DNA from: Escherichia coli
Lineage (GTDB): Bacteria; Pseudomonadota; Gammaproteobacteria; Enterobacterales; Enterobacteriaceae
Direction: 5' to 3' (one strand)
NCBI RefSeq assembly: GCF_003334355.1
Contig: NZ_QOWP01000046.1
DNA: 22,950 nucleotides
The notes under the pieces are model-generated. The model was not told the origin of the DNA and did no database searches. It was given only the letters and a program-made list of their open reading frames with translations. Made by a program: the position numbers and the translations under genes. Positions within the stretch are counted from its first letter, which is position 1. Each line of letters starts with the position of its first letter. Below are positions 8,288 through 20,672 of this stretch, piece after piece.

Positions 8288-11968
<3,681 letters not shown>

Positions 11969-16505: not shown

Positions 16506-17246
16506 ATGCCTGTACCAAATCCAGTAATGCCGGTGAAAGGGGCCGGGACCACACTGTGGGTTTATAAGGGGAACGGTGACCCTTATGCGAACCCGCTTTC
16601 AGACGTTGACTGGTCGCGTCTGGCTAAAGTTAAAGACCTGACGCCCGGCGAACTGACCGCTGAGTCCTATGACGACAGCTATCTCGATGATGAAGATGCG
16701 GACTGGACTGCGACCGGGCAGGGGCAGAAATCTGCCGGAGATACCAGCTTCACGCTGGCGTGGATGCCCGGAGAGCAGGGGCAGCAGGCGCTGCTGGCGT
16801 GGTTTAATGAAGGGGATACCCGTGCCTATAAAATCCGCTTCCCGAACAGCACGGTCGATGTGTTCCGCGGCTGGGTCAGCAGTATCGGTAAGGCGGTGAC
16901 GGCGAAGGAAGTGATTACCCGCACGGTGAAGGTCACCAATGTGGGACGTCCGTCGATGGCAGAAGATCGCAGCACGGTGACGGCGACAACCGGCATGACT
17001 GTGACGCCTGCCAGCACCTCGGTGGTGAAAGGGCAGAGCACCACGCTGACCGTGGCATTCCAGCCGGAAGGCGCAACCGACAAGAGCTTCTGTGCGGTGT
17101 CTGCGGATAAAACAAAAGCCACCGTGTCGGTCAGTGGTATGACCATCACCGTGAAAGGTGTTGCTGCAGGCAAGGTCAACATTCCGGTCGTATCCGGTAA
17201 TGGTGAACTTGCTGCGGTTGCAGAAATCACCGTCACCGCCAGTTAA
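16506..17246 (+). CDS. V: Major tail tube protein V
   Basis: 246 aa from [22 protein letters not shown]…, with the C-terminal Ig-like region present. Confidence 0.9.
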
Positions 17247-17261: not shown

Positions 17262-17684
17262 ATGTTCCTGAAAACCGAATCATTTGAACATAACGGTGTG
17301 ACCGTCACGCTTTCTGAACTGTCAGCCCTGCAGCGTATTGAGCATCTTGCCTGGTTGAAAGAGCAGGAAAAAAAGGCTGAATCCAGTGGCAACCTGCAGG
17401 TGTCTGTAGAGGAGCTTATCAGAGGCGGGGCGTTTCTGGTGGCGATGTCTCTGTGGCATAACCATCCACAGAAGACAAAGCTGCCGTCCATGAATGAAGT
17501 CATTACGCAGATTGAGCAGGAAGTGCTTACCACCTGGCCCACGGAGGCAATTGCTCAGGCTGAAAACGTGGTGTTACGTCTGTCCGGAATGTCTGAGTTT
17601 GTGGTGAATAATGCCCCTGAACAGACAGAGGACGCCGGGCCTGCAGAGCCTGTTTCTGCGGGAAAGTTTTCGACGGTGAGCTGA
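17262..17684 (+). CDS. G: Tail assembly chaperone G
   Basis: 140 aa; the slippery heptamer G GGA AAG lies at 17660-17666 near the 3' end. Confidence 0.9.
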   Translation: MFLKTESFEHNGVTVTLSELSALQRIEHLAWLKEQEKKAESSGNLQVSVEELIRGGAFLVAMSLWHNHPQKTKLPSMNEVITQIEQEVLTTWPTEAIAQAENVVLRLSGMSEFVVNNAPEQTEDAGPAEPVSAGKFSTVS

Positions 17685-18100
17685 GTTTTGCCCTGAAACT
17701 GGCGCGTGAGATGGGGCGACCCGACTGGCGTGCCATGCTTGCCGGGATGTCATCCACGGAGTATGCCGACTGGCACCGCTTTTACAGTACCCATTATTTT
17801 CATGATGTTCTGCTGGATATGCACTTTTCCGGGCTGACGTACACCGTGCTCAGCCTGTTTTTCAGCGATCCGGATATGCATCCGCTGGATTTCAGTTTGC
17901 TGAACCGGCGTGAGGCTGACGAAGAGCCTGAAGATGATGTGCTGATGCAGAAAGCGGCAGGGCTTGCCGGAGGTGTCCGCTTTGGCCCGGACGGGAATGA
18001 AGTTATCCCTACTTCCCCGGATGTGGCGGACATGACGGAGGATGACGTAATGCTGATGACAGTATCAGAAGGGATCGCAGGAGGAGTCCGGTATGGCTGA
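17666..18100 (+). CDS. T: T-frame portion of the G-T fusion chaperone, made by -1 programmed frameshift from G
   Basis: Open frame in the -1 register relative to G, starting at the slippery site and ending just after the H start; same architecture as λ G/GT. Confidence 0.8.
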   Translation, partial: VFDGELSFALKLAREMGRPDWRAMLAGMSSTEYADWHRFYSTHYFHDVLLDMHFSGLTYTVLSLFFSDPDMHPLDFSLLNRREADEEPEDDVLMQKAAGLAGGVRFGPDGNEVIPTSPDVADMTEDDVMLMTVSEGIAGGVRYG

Positions 18101-20672
18101 ACCGGTAGGCGATCTGGTCGTTGATTTGAGTCTGGATGCGGCCAGATTTGACGAGCAGATGGCCAGAGTCAGGCGTCATTTTTCCGGTACGGAAACTGAT
18201 GCGAAAAAAACAGCGGCAGTCGTTGAACAGTCGCTGAGCCGGCAGGCGCTGGCTGCACAGAAAGCGGGGATTTCCGTCGGACAGTATAAAGCCGCCATGC
18301 GTATGCTTCCTGCACAGTTCACCGACGTGGCCACGCAGCTTGCAGGCGGGCAAAGTCCGTGGCTGATCCTGCTGCAACAGGGGGGGCAGGTTAAGGACTC
18401 CTTCGGCGGGATGATCCCCATGTTCAGGGGGCTTGCCGGTGCGATCACCCTGCCGATGGTGGGGGCCACCTCGCTGGCGGTGGCGACCGGTGCGCTGGCG
18501 TATGCCTGGTATCAGGGCAACTCAACCCTGTCCGATTTCAACAAAACGCTGGTCCTTTCCGGCAATCAGGCGGGACTGACGGCAGATCGTATGCTGGTCC
18601 TGTCCAGAGCCGGGCAGGCGGCAGGGCTGACGTTTAACCAGACCAGCGAGTCACTGACGGCGCTGGTGAATGCCGGTGTGCGTGGTGGTGAGCAGTTTGA
18701 GGCGATCAGCCAGAGTGTGGCGCGTTTCTCCTCTGCATCCGGCGTGGAGGTGGACAAGGTCGCTGAAGCCTTCGGGAAGCTGACCACAGACCCGACGTCG
18801 GGACTGACAGCGATGGCACGTCAGTTCCATAACGTGACGGCGGAGCAGATTGCGTATGTTGCTCAGTTGCAGCGTTCCGGAGATGAAGCCGGGGCATTGC
18901 AGGCGGCGAACGAGGCCGCAACGAAAGGGTTTGATGACCAGACCCGCCGCCTGAAAGAGAACATGGGCACGCTGGAGACCTGGGCAGACAGGACAGCACG
19001 GGCATTCAAATCCATGTGGGATTCGGTGCTGGATATTGGTCGCCCGGACACTGCCCAGGGAATGCTGGAGAAAGCAGAAAAGGCTTTTGATGAGGCGGAC
19101 AAAAAATGGCAGTGGTATCAGAGCCGGAGCCACCGGCGCGGTAAAACCTCAGCATTTCTTGCCAATCTCCGGGGAGCATGGGAGGACAGAGCGAATGCGC
19201 AACTTGGGCTTTCAGCCGCCACGTTGCAGGCCGATCTTGAAAAGGCCAGAGAGATGGCAGCAAAGGACTGGGTCGAGTCTGAGGCATCACGGCTGAAATA
19301 TACCGAAGAGGCGCAGAAGGCTTACGAACGCCTGCAGACGCCGCTGGAGAAATATACCGCCCGTCAGGAAGAACTGAATAAGGCACTGAAAGACGGGAAA
19401 ATCCTGCAGGCAGATTACAACACGCTGATGGCGGCAGCGAAAAAGGATTATGAAGCGACGCTGAAAAAGCCGAAGCAGTCCGGCGTGAAAGTGTCTGCAG
19501 GCGATCGCCAGGAAGACAGTGCTCATGCTGCCCTGCTGACGCTTCAGGCAGAACTCCGGACGCTGGAGAAGCATGCCGGAGCGAATGAGAAAATCAGCCA
19601 GCAGCGCCGGGATTTGTGGAAGGCGGAGAGTCAGTTCGCTGTACTGGAGGAGGCGGCACAACGTCGCCAGCTGTCCGCACAGGAGAAATCCCTGCTGGCG
19701 CATAAAGATGAGACGCTGGAGTACAAACGCCAGCTGGCTGCACTTGGCGACAAGGTTACGTATCAGGAGCGCCTGAACGCGCTGGCGCAGCAGGCGGATA
19801 AATTCGCACAGCAGCAACGGGCAAAACGGGCCGCCATTGATGCGAAAAACCGGGGGCTGACTGACCGGCAGGCAGCGCGGGAAGCCACAGAACAGCGTCT
19901 GAAGGAACAGTATGGCGATAATCCGCTGGCGCTGAATAACGTCATGTCAGAGCAGAAAAAGACCTGGACGGCTGAAGACCAGCTTCGCGGGAGCTGGATG
20001 GCAGGCCTGAAGTCCGGCTGGAGTGAGTGGGAAGAGAGCGCCACGGACAGTATGTCGCAGGTTAAAAGTGCAGCCACGCAGACCTTTGATGGTATTGCGC
20101 AGAATATGGCGGCGATGCTGACCGGCAGTGAGCAGAACTGGCGCAGCTTCACCCGTTCCGTGCTGTCCATGATGACAGAAATTCTGCTTAAGCAGGCAAT
20201 GGTGGGGATTGTCGGGAGTATCGGCAGCGCCATTGGCGGGGCTGTTGGTGGCGGCGCATCCGCATCAGGCGGTACAGCCATTCAGGCAGCTGCGGCGAAA
20301 TTCCATTTTGCGACCGGAGGATTTACGGGAACCGGCGGCAAATATGAGCCAGCGGGGATTGTTCACCGTGGTGAGTTTGTCTTCACGAAGGAGGCAACCA
20401 GCCGGATTGGCGTGGGGAATCTTTACCGGCTGATGCGCGGCTATGCCACCGGCGGTTATGTCGGTACACCGGGCAGCATGGCAGACAACCGGTCGCAGGC
20501 GTCCGGGACGTTTGAGCAGAATAACCATGTGGTGATTAACAACGACGGCACGAACGGGCAGATAGGTCCGGCTGCTCTGAAGGCGGTGTATGACATGGCC
20601 CGCAAGGGTGCCCGTGATGAAATTCAGACACAGATGCGTGATGGTGGCCTGTTCTCCGGAGGTGGACGATGA
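18093..20672 (+). CDS. H: Tail tape-measure protein H
   Basis: 859 aa beginning MAEPVGDLVVDLSLDAARFDEQMARVRRHF…, with the Gly-rich C-terminal region; 6 codons longer than the 853 aa I recall for λ gpH. Confidence 0.9.
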   Translation: MAEPVGDLVVDLSLDAARFDEQMARVRRHFSGTETDAKKTAAVVEQSLSRQALAAQKAGISVGQYKAAMRMLPAQFTDVATQLAGGQSPWLILLQQGGQVKDSFGGMIPMFRGLAGAITLPMVGATSLAVATGALAYAWYQGNSTLSDFNKTLVLSGNQAGLTADRMLVLSRAGQAAGLTFNQTSESLTALVNAGVRGGEQFEAISQSVARFSSASGVEVDKVAEAFGKLTTDPTSGLTAMARQFHNVTAEQIAYVAQLQRSGDEAGALQAANEAATKGFDDQTRRLKENMGTLETWADRTARAFKSMWDSVLDIGRPDTAQGMLEKAEKAFDEADKKWQWYQSRSHRRGKTSAFLANLRGAWEDRANAQLGLSAATLQADLEKAREMAAKDWVESEASRLKYTEEAQKAYERLQTPLEKYTARQEELNKALKDGKILQADYNTLMAAAKKDYEATLKKPKQSGVKVSAGDRQEDSAHAALLTLQAELRTLEKHAGANEKISQQRRDLWKAESQFAVLEEAAQRRQLSAQEKSLLAHKDETLEYKRQLAALGDKVTYQERLNALAQQADKFAQQQRAKRAAIDAKNRGLTDRQAAREATEQRLKEQYGDNPLALNNVMSEQKKTWTAEDQLRGSWMAGLKSGWSEWEESATDSMSQVKSAATQTFDGIAQNMAAMLTGSEQNWRSFTRSVLSMMTEILLKQAMVGIVGSIGSAIGGAVGGGASASGGTAIQAAAAKFHFATGGFTGTGGKYEPAGIVHRGEFVFTKEATSRIGVGNLYRLMRGYATGGYVGTPGSMADNRSQASGTFEQNNHVVINNDGTNGQIGPAALKAVYDMARKGARDEIQTQMRDGGLFSGGGR

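What the first reader, a model, noticed from the sequence alone, without database searches (positions are those of the whole stretch)
17660..17666. Conserved G-T -1 programmed frameshift site
The slippery heptamer G GGA AAG sits 16 nt before the G stop, with the T frame open in the -1 register through to the H start. The expected G:GT chaperone architecture is intact.
Basis: partly seen in the sequence, partly recalled or inferred. Interest (0 to 1): 0.15.

Follow-up and report, generated by a model that had tools for sequence, protein, structure and literature searches.

The report
Lambda-type G/GT tail-chaperone frameshift site
This is the well-known "slippery" site at which a few percent of ribosomes translating the phage lambda tail gene G slip back one base to make the longer GT protein needed for tail assembly; it is intact here in an E. 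coli lambda-like prophage and is an ordinary, already-described feature.

Summary
GGGAAAG lies at 17660-17666 in the register G GGA AAG of gene G (17262-17684). The G stop codon starts 16 nt after the heptamer's last base. The -1 frame is open from 17621 to 18100 and overlaps the H start (18093) by 8 nt.

The DNA is 93.8% identical to phage lambda G-T and 99.9% identical to E. coli prophages. The predicted 279-aa fusion matches a full-length GT PHROG, the NCBIfam equivalogs for lambda G and T, and Pfam PF06894 plus PF06223.

Comparative data fix the shift site:
- In 16 phage records (down to about 33-36% protein identity) and 77 of 78 viral-contig loci, T is in the -1 frame and an in-register xxA AAG site (G GGA AAG, A AAA AAG or G GAA AAG) lies in the short overlap.
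- No start codon is conserved in the T frame, and invariant T residues lie upstream of the first ATG.
- Of 12 in-register X XXY YYZ heptamers in 4,739 late-gene codons, only this one opens into a longer -1 product.

The verdict is an already-known lambda G/GT -1 programmed ribosomal frameshift of low interest. Two minor leads remain: a weakly supported downstream hairpin, and a second in-register A AAA AAG inside this G allele.

The parts
16506..17246 (+). Gene V, major tail tube protein (upstream context of the G/GT module)
   Evidence: 246 aa; matches phrog_41 'major tail protein' end to end, E 3e-123. Same position as lambda V.
17262..17684 (+). Gene G, tail assembly chaperone; the zero-frame product is 140 aa
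   Evidence: ORF. TIGR01674 phage_lambda_G 186.9 bits (cut-off 74.45). Pfam PF06894 Phage_TAC_2 E 1.6e-51. phrog_42.
17621..17684 (+). G / -1-frame overlap: the only stretch where a -1 shift joins G to T
   Evidence: The last -1-frame stop ends at 17620 and the G stop is at 17682-17684. In relatives the overlap shrinks to 25-37 nt but still contains the site.
17660..17666 (+). Slippery heptamer G GGA AAG, the -1 programmed ribosomal frameshift site
   Evidence: Sequence and register. Identical to lambda at the homologous position. GGGAAAG in 75 and AAAAAAG in 2 of 78 viral-contig loci, always 15 nt before the G stop. Lambda's G/GT slippery sequence is listed as GGGAAAG in PMC3296357 Table 1.
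17666..18100 (+). T segment, read in the -1 frame after base 17666 is read a second time. Together with 17262-17666 it encodes the 279-aa GT fusion
   Evidence: Translations. The fusion matches phrog_32165 over residues 1-278 (E 3e-127). TIGR01715 phage_lam_T 185.8 bits (cut-off 77.35) over fusion residues 140-245. PF06223.
17674..17744 (+). Predicted RNA hairpin downstream of the slip site (outer helix 17674-17681 with 17737-17744; inner helix 17700-17715 with 17720-17735). A weak lead, not an established part
   Evidence: MFE -38.7 kcal/mol, z -2.45. More negative than 94% of same-length windows in the late operon. 96.7% of cells paired in 10 relatives, but 14 of 21 pairs never vary and only 2 show compensatory change. 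Not kept in mEp460.
18093..20672 (+). Gene H, tail tape measure protein (downstream context; the binding partner of G and GT in lambda)
   Evidence: 859 aa. phrog_24 tape measure. TIGR01541 tape_meas_lam_C 444 bits. Its ATG overlaps the T stop.

Best explanation
This is the lambda-type G/GT -1 programmed ribosomal frameshift site of an E. coli lambdoid prophage.

Most ribosomes translating G read ...GCG GGA AAG TTT TCG ACG GTG AGC TGA and release the 140-aa chaperone gpG. A small fraction, about 4% in lambda itself, slip back one base while tRNA-Gly and tRNA-Lys occupy GGA and AAG. The tRNAs re-pair with GGG and AAA, and the next codon read is GTT (17666-17668). Those ribosomes continue for 144 more codons to the TGA at 18098-18100 and make the 279-aa fusion gpGT.

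The driver is the A AAG element. The single E. coli tRNA-Lys (mnm5s2UUU anticodon) reads both AAG and AAA, so re-pairing after the slip costs little.

In lambda, many gpG and a few gpGT bind the tape measure protein gpH through the G part. The T part recruits the major tail protein gpV. Neither protein ends up in the virion, and the roughly 30:1 ratio set by the frameshift rate is needed for tail assembly.

Shown here: the sequence, register, frames, homology, synteny and conservation of the site. Inferred by homology to lambda: that the fusion is made, at what rate, and what it does.
For: - Sequence and register.
- Identity: 93.8% nucleotide identity to lambda G-T, with the heptamer at the homologous position.
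- Family matches: the fusion matches a full-length GT family (phrog_32165, residues 1-278) plus TIGR01674, TIGR01715, PF06894 and PF06223.
- Synteny: V-G-T-H order.
- Two-frame architecture: all 185 phage records match the fusion as two pieces in different frames.
- Site conservation: in 16 phage loci spanning 98% down to about 33-36% identity, an in-register xxA AAG always lies in the overlap, and -1-frame stops lie as close as 9 nt upstream of it. 77 of 78 IMG/VR loci show the same, with constant 15-nt spacing.
- No independent start for T: K135, E140 and F143 of the fusion are invariant and lie upstream of the first T-frame ATG, which is Phe in five of the ten aligned sequences. Lambda's GTG right after the site is GTT here and GTC, GTA, GCx elsewhere.
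- Uniqueness in the operon: it is the only in-register heptamer of 12 in the late operon that extends the protein.
- Substitution pattern: the G-to-T difference from lambda at 17668 changes Cys to Phe in the G frame but is silent (Val) in the T frame.
- Literature: GGGAAAG slip site, about 96% zero-frame reading and dependence on tRNA-Lys modification (PMC3296357); the 30:1 ratio and chaperone model (PMC5009743); G_GGA_AAG (PMC7618472); A_AA.G as the most shift-prone tetramer in E. coli (PMC4066793); G GGA AAG nearly as effective as A AAA AAG (PMC6924986).
Against: There is no direct evidence of the fusion protein or of a frameshift rate for this particular allele. The base two positions after the heptamer differs from lambda (T instead of G), and its effect on efficiency is unmeasured. 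Most database records, including RefSeq/PGAP for the 99.9% identical prophage, annotate T as a separate gene. That is an annotation convention rather than evidence. One related locus (L018) has the site out of register.
Confidence: 0.95

Rival explanations
1. T is an ordinary separate gene translated from its own start codon (the ATG at 17711, or the codon right after the heptamer as in the lambda record), and the heptamer is incidental.
For: Most records annotate it this way. Lambda RefSeq has T as CDS 10115-10549 starting at a GTG. PGAP calls a 129-aa 'phage tail assembly protein T' from the ATG in the nearest E. coli prophage. An ATG exists at 17711.
Against: The lambda GTG is GTT in this window, which is not a start codon, and it is GTC, GTA, GCG, GCA or GCC in relatives. 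The ATG at 17711 corresponds to Phe in N15, Flotzy, mEp213, mEp460 and Providencia phage PSTCR8lys. The T family model and the invariant residues E140 and F143 begin upstream of that ATG, directly after the slip site. The 15 nt before 17711 (AAACTGGCGCGTGAG) contain no spaced Shine-Dalgarno sequence. A full-length GT family exists in PHROGs.
Confidence: 0.03
2. The G-T fusion arises from transcriptional slippage (RNA polymerase adding or dropping a base in the A run) rather than ribosomal slippage.
For: The site contains a short A run, and relatives with AAAAAAG have six A's.
Against: Here the run is only three A's, far shorter than the homopolymer runs that support polymerase slippage (general knowledge, not tested here). 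The conserved feature across relatives is the codon register xxA AAG rather than run length. In lambda the GT level responds to the tRNA-Lys U34 modification state, which is a translational effect (PMC3296357).
Confidence: 0.01
3. The heptamer is a chance occurrence in a decaying prophage, and GT is no longer made or needed.
For: GGGAAAG occurs 5 times in the window against 3.3 expected. Prophage copies can decay, as in L018.
Against: G, the T frame, V and H are all intact and full length. Differences from lambda in the T segment are nearly all synonymous (1 of 5 nonsynonymous). The site is invariant in register and spacing in 77 of 78 loci.
Confidence: 0.01

Closest known systems
Bacteriophage lambda G / G-T -1 programmed ribosomal frameshift (Levin, Hendrix & Casjens 1993, J Mol Biol 234:124; Xu, Hendrix & Duda 2013 and 2014, as cited in PMC5009743 and PMC7618472)
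   Same: Same heptamer G GGA AAG at the homologous codons and the same 15-nt distance to the G stop. Same 140-aa G and 279-aa GT lengths, the same V-G-T-H gene order and the same ATGGCTGA overlap with H. 93.8% nucleotide identity over G-T.
   Different: The G coding part is a divergent allele: 49 of the 54 nucleotide differences lie upstream of the slip site, 30 of them nonsynonymous. The base at 17668 is T rather than G, so the G tail reads ...GKFSTVS instead of ...GKCSTVS, and lambda's nominal GTG 'T start' is absent. This allele also carries an extra in-register A AAA AAG at 17369.
Conserved tail assembly chaperone frameshift of long-tailed dsDNA phages (Xu, Hendrix & Duda 2004, Mol Cell; cited in PMC5009743), for example N15 genes 14/15 and phage LLS genes 11/12
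   Same: Two overlapping ORFs between the major tail and tape measure genes, with the second in the -1 frame and expressed only as an extension of the first. The slip site lies near the end of the first ORF.
   Different: N15, LLS, mEp213, mEp460 and Providencia phage PSTCR8lys use G GAA AAG, where only the A-site tRNA re-pairs perfectly. This sequence is described as less slippery in PMC6924986. In mEp460 and PSTCR8lys the site lies 3 or 0 nt from the stop. Other phage groups use other shifts, for example -2 in Mu (PMC3498833).
E. coli dnaX A AAA AAG -1 frameshift
   Same: The same A AAG / tRNA-Lys slippage core. A AAA AAG is the site in the Stx1-phage and ASU11 relatives of this locus.
   Different: [quoted passage not shown] Here I saw no Shine-Dalgarno-like element within 6-17 nt upstream on reading. 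A downstream stimulator is unproven, and the frameshift product is longer.

Membership tests
Lambda-type G/GT tail assembly chaperone -1 programmed frameshift | Two overlapping ORFs lying between the major tail protein gene and the tape measure gene | tested here: met
   V 16506-17246 (phrog_41), G 17262-17684, T frame 17621-18100, H 18093-20672 (phrog_24, TIGR01541).
Lambda-type G/GT tail assembly chaperone -1 programmed frameshift | Upstream ORF is a gpG homologue | tested here: met
   TIGR01674 phage_lambda_G 186.9 bits against a cut-off of 74.45. PF06894 E 1.6e-51.
Lambda-type G/GT tail assembly chaperone -1 programmed frameshift | Downstream ORF is a gpT homologue in the -1 frame relative to G | tested here: met
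   TIGR01715 phage_lam_T 185.8 bits against a cut-off of 77.35. PF06223. -1 frame confirmed. T is in the -1 frame in 77 of 78 related loci.
Lambda-type G/GT tail assembly chaperone -1 programmed frameshift | Slippery heptamer in the zero-frame register X XXY YYZ inside the overlap, near the G stop | tested here: met
   G GGA AAG at 17660-17666, 15 nt before the TGA.
Lambda-type G/GT tail assembly chaperone -1 programmed frameshift | T has no conserved initiation codon of its own; conserved T residues begin directly after the slip site | tested here: met
   GTG in lambda is GTT here and GTC, GTA, GCx in relatives. The first ATG corresponds to Phe in five of the ten aligned sequences, and invariant E140 and F143 lie upstream of it.
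Lambda-type G/GT tail assembly chaperone -1 programmed frameshift | Slip site conserved in function across diverged relatives | tested here: met
   An in-register xxA AAG is present in all 16 phage loci down to about 33-36% identity and in 77 of 78 IMG/VR loci. The Lys at the site is invariant.
Lambda-type G/GT tail assembly chaperone -1 programmed frameshift | The fusion protein is actually produced at a low, fixed rate (about 3.5-4% in lambda) | not testable with these tools
   Known for lambda only (PMC3296357; PMC1616953 quotes 0.3-3.5% for gpG/gpGT). No expression data exist for this allele.
Lambda-type G/GT tail assembly chaperone -1 programmed frameshift | gpG and gpGT are both required for tail assembly, in a balanced ratio, and are absent from virions | not testable with these tools
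   Literature for lambda (PMC5009743). Inferred here by homology.

The most novel reading that the evidence does not exclude
The predicted hairpin starting 7 nt after the heptamer (17674-17744) may be a conserved cis element that tunes the G:GT ratio in lambda-like phages. Separately, the extra in-register A AAA AAG at 17369-17375, found only in this G allele and followed by a -1 stop after one codon, may act as a second deliberate slip site that lowers gpG output. Either would add an undescribed layer of control to a textbook frameshift.
Probability: 0.07. Interest if true: 0.3.

Novelty: already known. Interest (0 to 1): 0.05.

Why it matters
It matters mainly for annotation. The GT fusion is an essential tail-assembly protein, yet the records fetched here for lambda (RefSeq), HK630, Turner, PhiR46_1 and the closest E. 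coli prophage (RefSeq/PGAP) all show T as a separate CDS rather than as a joined G-T product. Among the fetched records only phage LLS carries a joined CDS, and N15 marks the slippery sequence. G-T DNA at least 80-90% identical to this window is present in 3,509 of 5,426 complete E. coli genomes, so the gap is widespread. Confirming the site also shows that the tail module of this prophage is intact. It does not open a new biological question.

Tried and rejected
- Rfam scan of the whole window: nothing at the frameshift site, only an unrelated cspA thermoregulator. No curated family for this site was found, so this is uninformative.
- tRNA scan: no tRNA genes.
- PDB sequence search with the fusion: no hits.
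- Strict X XXY YYZ search in divergent relatives: failed for N15-like, mEp460-like and Providencia phages. Reading the codons showed they use G GAA AAG instead, so the strict pattern was too narrow and the site is not absent.
- Downstream stimulatory hairpin: a fold exists (z -2.45) and is in about the top 6% of local windows. However, 14 of 21 pairs never vary, only 2 covary, and the region encodes the most conserved peptide of T (LKLAREMGRPDWRAML). I did not accept it as part of the mechanism.
- Upstream Shine-Dalgarno-like stimulator: I saw none within 6-17 nt on reading. The nearest GAGGA ends 28 nt upstream.
- Literature on whether lambda G-T needs a downstream element: I could not retrieve Levin 1993 or Xu 2013, and the reviews I read do not state it. 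My memory that no stimulator is required is unverified.
- First version of the -1 ORF length script: it read the wrong base and gave wrong lengths. It was corrected, and only the counts are used.
- L018 as a possible natural in-frame G-T fusion: rejected. It is a 4-nt insertion that truncates G.

Full report
**1. The observation**

The window has GGGAAAG at 17660-17666 on the + strand. The ORF 17262-17684 encodes a 140-aa protein. The heptamer begins at the third position of a codon, so the zero-frame reading is GCG GGA AAG TTT TCG ACG GTG AGC TGA. The -1 frame is open from 17621 to a TGA at 18098-18100. The next gene's ATG is at 18093, giving an ATGGCTGA overlap.

**2. Is it more than chance?**

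The bare heptamer is not rare: there are 5 copies in the window against 3.3 expected. The other two + strand copies (6414, 21790) are out of register with the ORFs that contain them, by arithmetic on the ORF coordinates. Across 16 late genes (4,739 codons) there are 12 in-register X XXY YYZ heptamers, which gives about 0.05 expected in the 21-codon G/T overlap. Only the one at 17660 leads into a -1 reading frame longer than what is left of the zero frame (144 codons against 5). The other 11 hit a -1 stop well before the zero-frame stop, after 1-46 codons. The first version of that script read the wrong base, and one search is the corrected one.

**3. What the DNA is**

G-T is 93.8% identical to lambda (NC_001416 9711-10549) and 97.6-98.3% identical to phages Turner, PhiR46_1 and IdasGreatGrand. 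It is 99.9% identical to prophages in several E. coli chromosomes. Matching G-T DNA (80% identity or more in all but a handful of records) occurs in 3,509 of 5,426 complete E. coli genomes. The whole window aligns to lambdoid phages in prophage order: lysis genes, then the packaging genes (terminase, portal), then head and tail genes.

The neighbours are V (phrog_41, major tail protein) and H (phrog_24; TIGR01541, tape measure). The predicted fusion consists of G residues 1-135 plus the -1 frame from 17666, 279 aa in total. It matches phrog_32165 over residues 1-278 (E 3e-127). It also matches TIGR01674 phage_lambda_G and TIGR01715 phage_lam_T, both far above their curated cut-offs, and Pfam PF06894 and PF06223.

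**4. Comparative mapping of the shift site**

All 185 phage records that match the fusion do so as two pieces in different frames. I fetched a graded series of 16 phage loci, from 98% down to about 33-36% protein identity. In every one, the G ORF overlaps an open -1 frame by only 25-82 nt, and an in-register site ending in A AAG lies inside that overlap:
- G GGA AAG in lambda, HK630, Turner, PhiR46_1, an Stx2a phage and PhiR12_2*.
- A AAA AAG in Stx1_1649, ASU11 and Stx2_14744.
- G GAA AAG in N15, Flotzy, LLS, mEp213, mEp460, phi458 and Providencia phage PSTCR8lys.

N15 and LLS carry depositor annotations of exactly this site as the -1 slippery sequence. In the Stx2a phages the -1 frame opens only 9 nt upstream of the heptamer. 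In PSTCR8lys the G stop follows the AAG directly. The only region where a -1 shift is productive in all relatives is therefore the heptamer and a few bases before it.

A wider sample of 80 IMG/VR loci gave 78 with both parts. Of these, 77 have T in the -1 frame with an in-register GGGAAAG (75) or AAAAAAG (2), always 15 nt before the stop. The constant spacing has a simple cause. The G stop TGA is formed across the -1-frame codons GAG CTG A.., which encode the conserved Glu-Leu/Met of T.

The one exception, L018, has a 4-nt insertion 40 nt upstream of the heptamer. The insertion truncates G at 124 aa and leaves the intact heptamer out of register, so it is a damaged copy.

**5. T cannot be an independent gene**

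Lambda's record starts T at a GTG immediately after the slip site. That codon is GTT in this window, GTC in most IMG/VR loci, and GTA, GCG, GCA or GCC elsewhere. The first ATG in the T frame here (17711, fusion residue 151) aligns with Phe in five of the ten aligned sequences. The invariant residues K135 (the slip-site Lys), E140 and F143 lie upstream of it, and the TIGR01715 match starts at residue 140. The G-to-T difference from lambda at 17668 changes Cys to Phe in the G tail but is silent in the T frame. This fits the -1 frame being the constrained reading after the slip site.

**6. Mechanism**

By homology with lambda, tRNA-Gly on GGA and tRNA-Lys on AAG slip back to GGG and AAA. The next codon read is then GTT, and translation continues to 18100.
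- PMC3296357 lists GGGAAAG as lambda's G/GT slippery sequence. It reports that the zero frame is kept about 96% of the time, and that under-modification of tRNA-Lys (UUU) U34 raises frameshifting and lowers phage yield.
- PMC5009743 summarises the 30:1 gpG:gpGT ratio and the chaperone model. The G part binds tape measure gpH, the T part recruits gpV, and neither protein is in the virion.
- PMC4066793 ranks A_AA.G as the most shift-prone tetramer in E. coli. This explains why A AAG is the invariant core in the family.
- PMC6924986 reports G GGA AAG as nearly as effective as A AAA AAG, and G GAA AAG as less slippery.

The production, rate and function of GT for this particular allele are inferred, not shown.

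**7. Possible stimulators**

On reading, I saw no Shine-Dalgarno-like element 6-17 nt upstream. Downstream, a hairpin is predicted whose outer helix begins 7 nt after the heptamer (MFE -38.7 kcal/mol, z -2.45). Its z-score is more negative than that of 94% of same-length windows across the late operon. It is formed in 96.7% of cells across 10 relatives. However, 14 of 21 pairs never vary and only 2 show compensatory change. It overlies the most conserved peptide of T, and it is not kept in mEp460. I treat it as an unproven lead. I could not retrieve the primary lambda papers. My recollection that lambda needs no stimulator is unverified.

**8. Comparison and verdict**

All sequence-level defining features of the lambda-type G/GT frameshift were tested and met. 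Only expression and function could not be tested. This is an already-known feature in a very common E. coli prophage family. The practical residue is an annotation gap: the fetched RefSeq and GenBank records of lambda, its close relatives and the nearest E. coli prophage still show T as a stand-alone gene.

Noticed in passing
window 17668: T here, G in lambda, HK630, Turner and PhiR46_1. This removes the GTG that the lambda record uses as the nominal start of T (GTT is not a start codon). It changes the G tail from ...GKCSTVS to ...GKFSTVS and is silent (Val) in the GT frame. It is shared with the E. coli VG888-46E9 prophage, which differs from the window only at 17500 over the 839 nt.
   Followed up: yes
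window 17369-17375: A second in-register slippery heptamer, A AAA AAG (the dnaX-type motif, within a run of seven A's), lies inside G at codons Glu-Lys-Lys. A -1 slip there meets a stop after one codon. It is present in 14 of the 97 fetched loci and absent from lambda's G allele. It may be a neutral cost or a ribosome sink; this was not tested.
   Followed up: partly
window 17336-17642 versus 17667-18100: The divergence from lambda is very uneven. Of the 54 nucleotide differences, 49 lie in the G part (30 nonsynonymous) and only 5 in the T part (1 nonsynonymous). G therefore looks like a mosaic or exchanged allele joined to a lambda-like T.
   Followed up: partly
window 17674-17744: A predicted RNA hairpin begins 7 nt after the slip site. 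It is stable (z -2.45, about the top 6% of local windows) and mostly maintained in relatives, but it shows almost no covariation and overlaps the most conserved T peptide.
   Followed up: partly
window 17940-18097 (fusion residues 227-279): The lambda-type T ends in a tandem duplication of a motif: DDVLMQKAAGLAGGVRFG, then DDVMLMTVSEGIAGGVRYG. N15-, phi80- and mEp460-type relatives have only one copy and end about 35 residues earlier.
   Followed up: no
window 5297-5681 (+), ORF 5442-5654: An Rfam cspA thermoregulator (RF01766, 114 bits, E 7e-29) covers the 5' leader and the ORF of a 70-aa cold-shock protein gene (best NCBIfam match CspG, just below its cut-off). It lies between the lysis genes and Nu1, so it looks like a prophage-borne cold-shock 'moron'.
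   Followed up: partly
window 476-1000 (-) and 2550-3272 (+): The left end of the window is not lambda-like. It holds a Blc-family outer-membrane lipoprotein gene (312.6 bits, above the cut-off) and an AraC-family regulator (best matches YdeO, GadX and HilD, all below their cut-offs) upstream of the lysis genes. These are probably prophage cargo genes.
   Followed up: no
window 4583-5080 (+) with 4758-5030 (+): An Rz-like ORF (165 aa) contains an embedded ORF in another frame. The embedded ORF encodes a peptide with a lipoprotein-like signal (…LIVLTSC…), which is the Rz/Rz1 nested-gene arrangement. This identification is by reading the sequence and from memory, not by a family search.
   Followed up: no
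L018 1201-2043 (IMGVR_UViG_2695420576_000005): A related prophage copy has a 4-nt insertion (ACAGAGG changed to GCCCTCGTCTG) 40 nt upstream of the heptamer. G is truncated at 124 aa and the intact GGGAAAG is out of register, so this is a decayed copy or an assembly error.
   Followed up: yes
Records NC_001416.1, JQ086376.1, PP925837.1, PV340565.1, NZ_CP128581.1: T is annotated as a separate CDS, starting either at the GTG after the slip site or at a downstream ATG. In phage Turner, G is labelled 'hypothetical protein'. Among the fetched records only LLS has a joined G-T CDS, and N15 marks the slippery sequence.
   Followed up: yes
MW057783.1 'Campylobacter phage CJLB-4' (48,361 bp): A record labelled as a Campylobacter jejuni phage carries G-T at lambda-like coordinates (9630-10468) with the same 93.8% identity to the window as lambda itself. 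It looks like lambda DNA under another name.
   Followed up: no
PMC3296357, main text: The paper's body text gives the lambda slippery sequence as 'GGGTTTG', with codons GGT-TTG and GGG-TTT, while its Table 1 gives GGGAAAG. The text version is a slip in the paper.
   Followed up: yes
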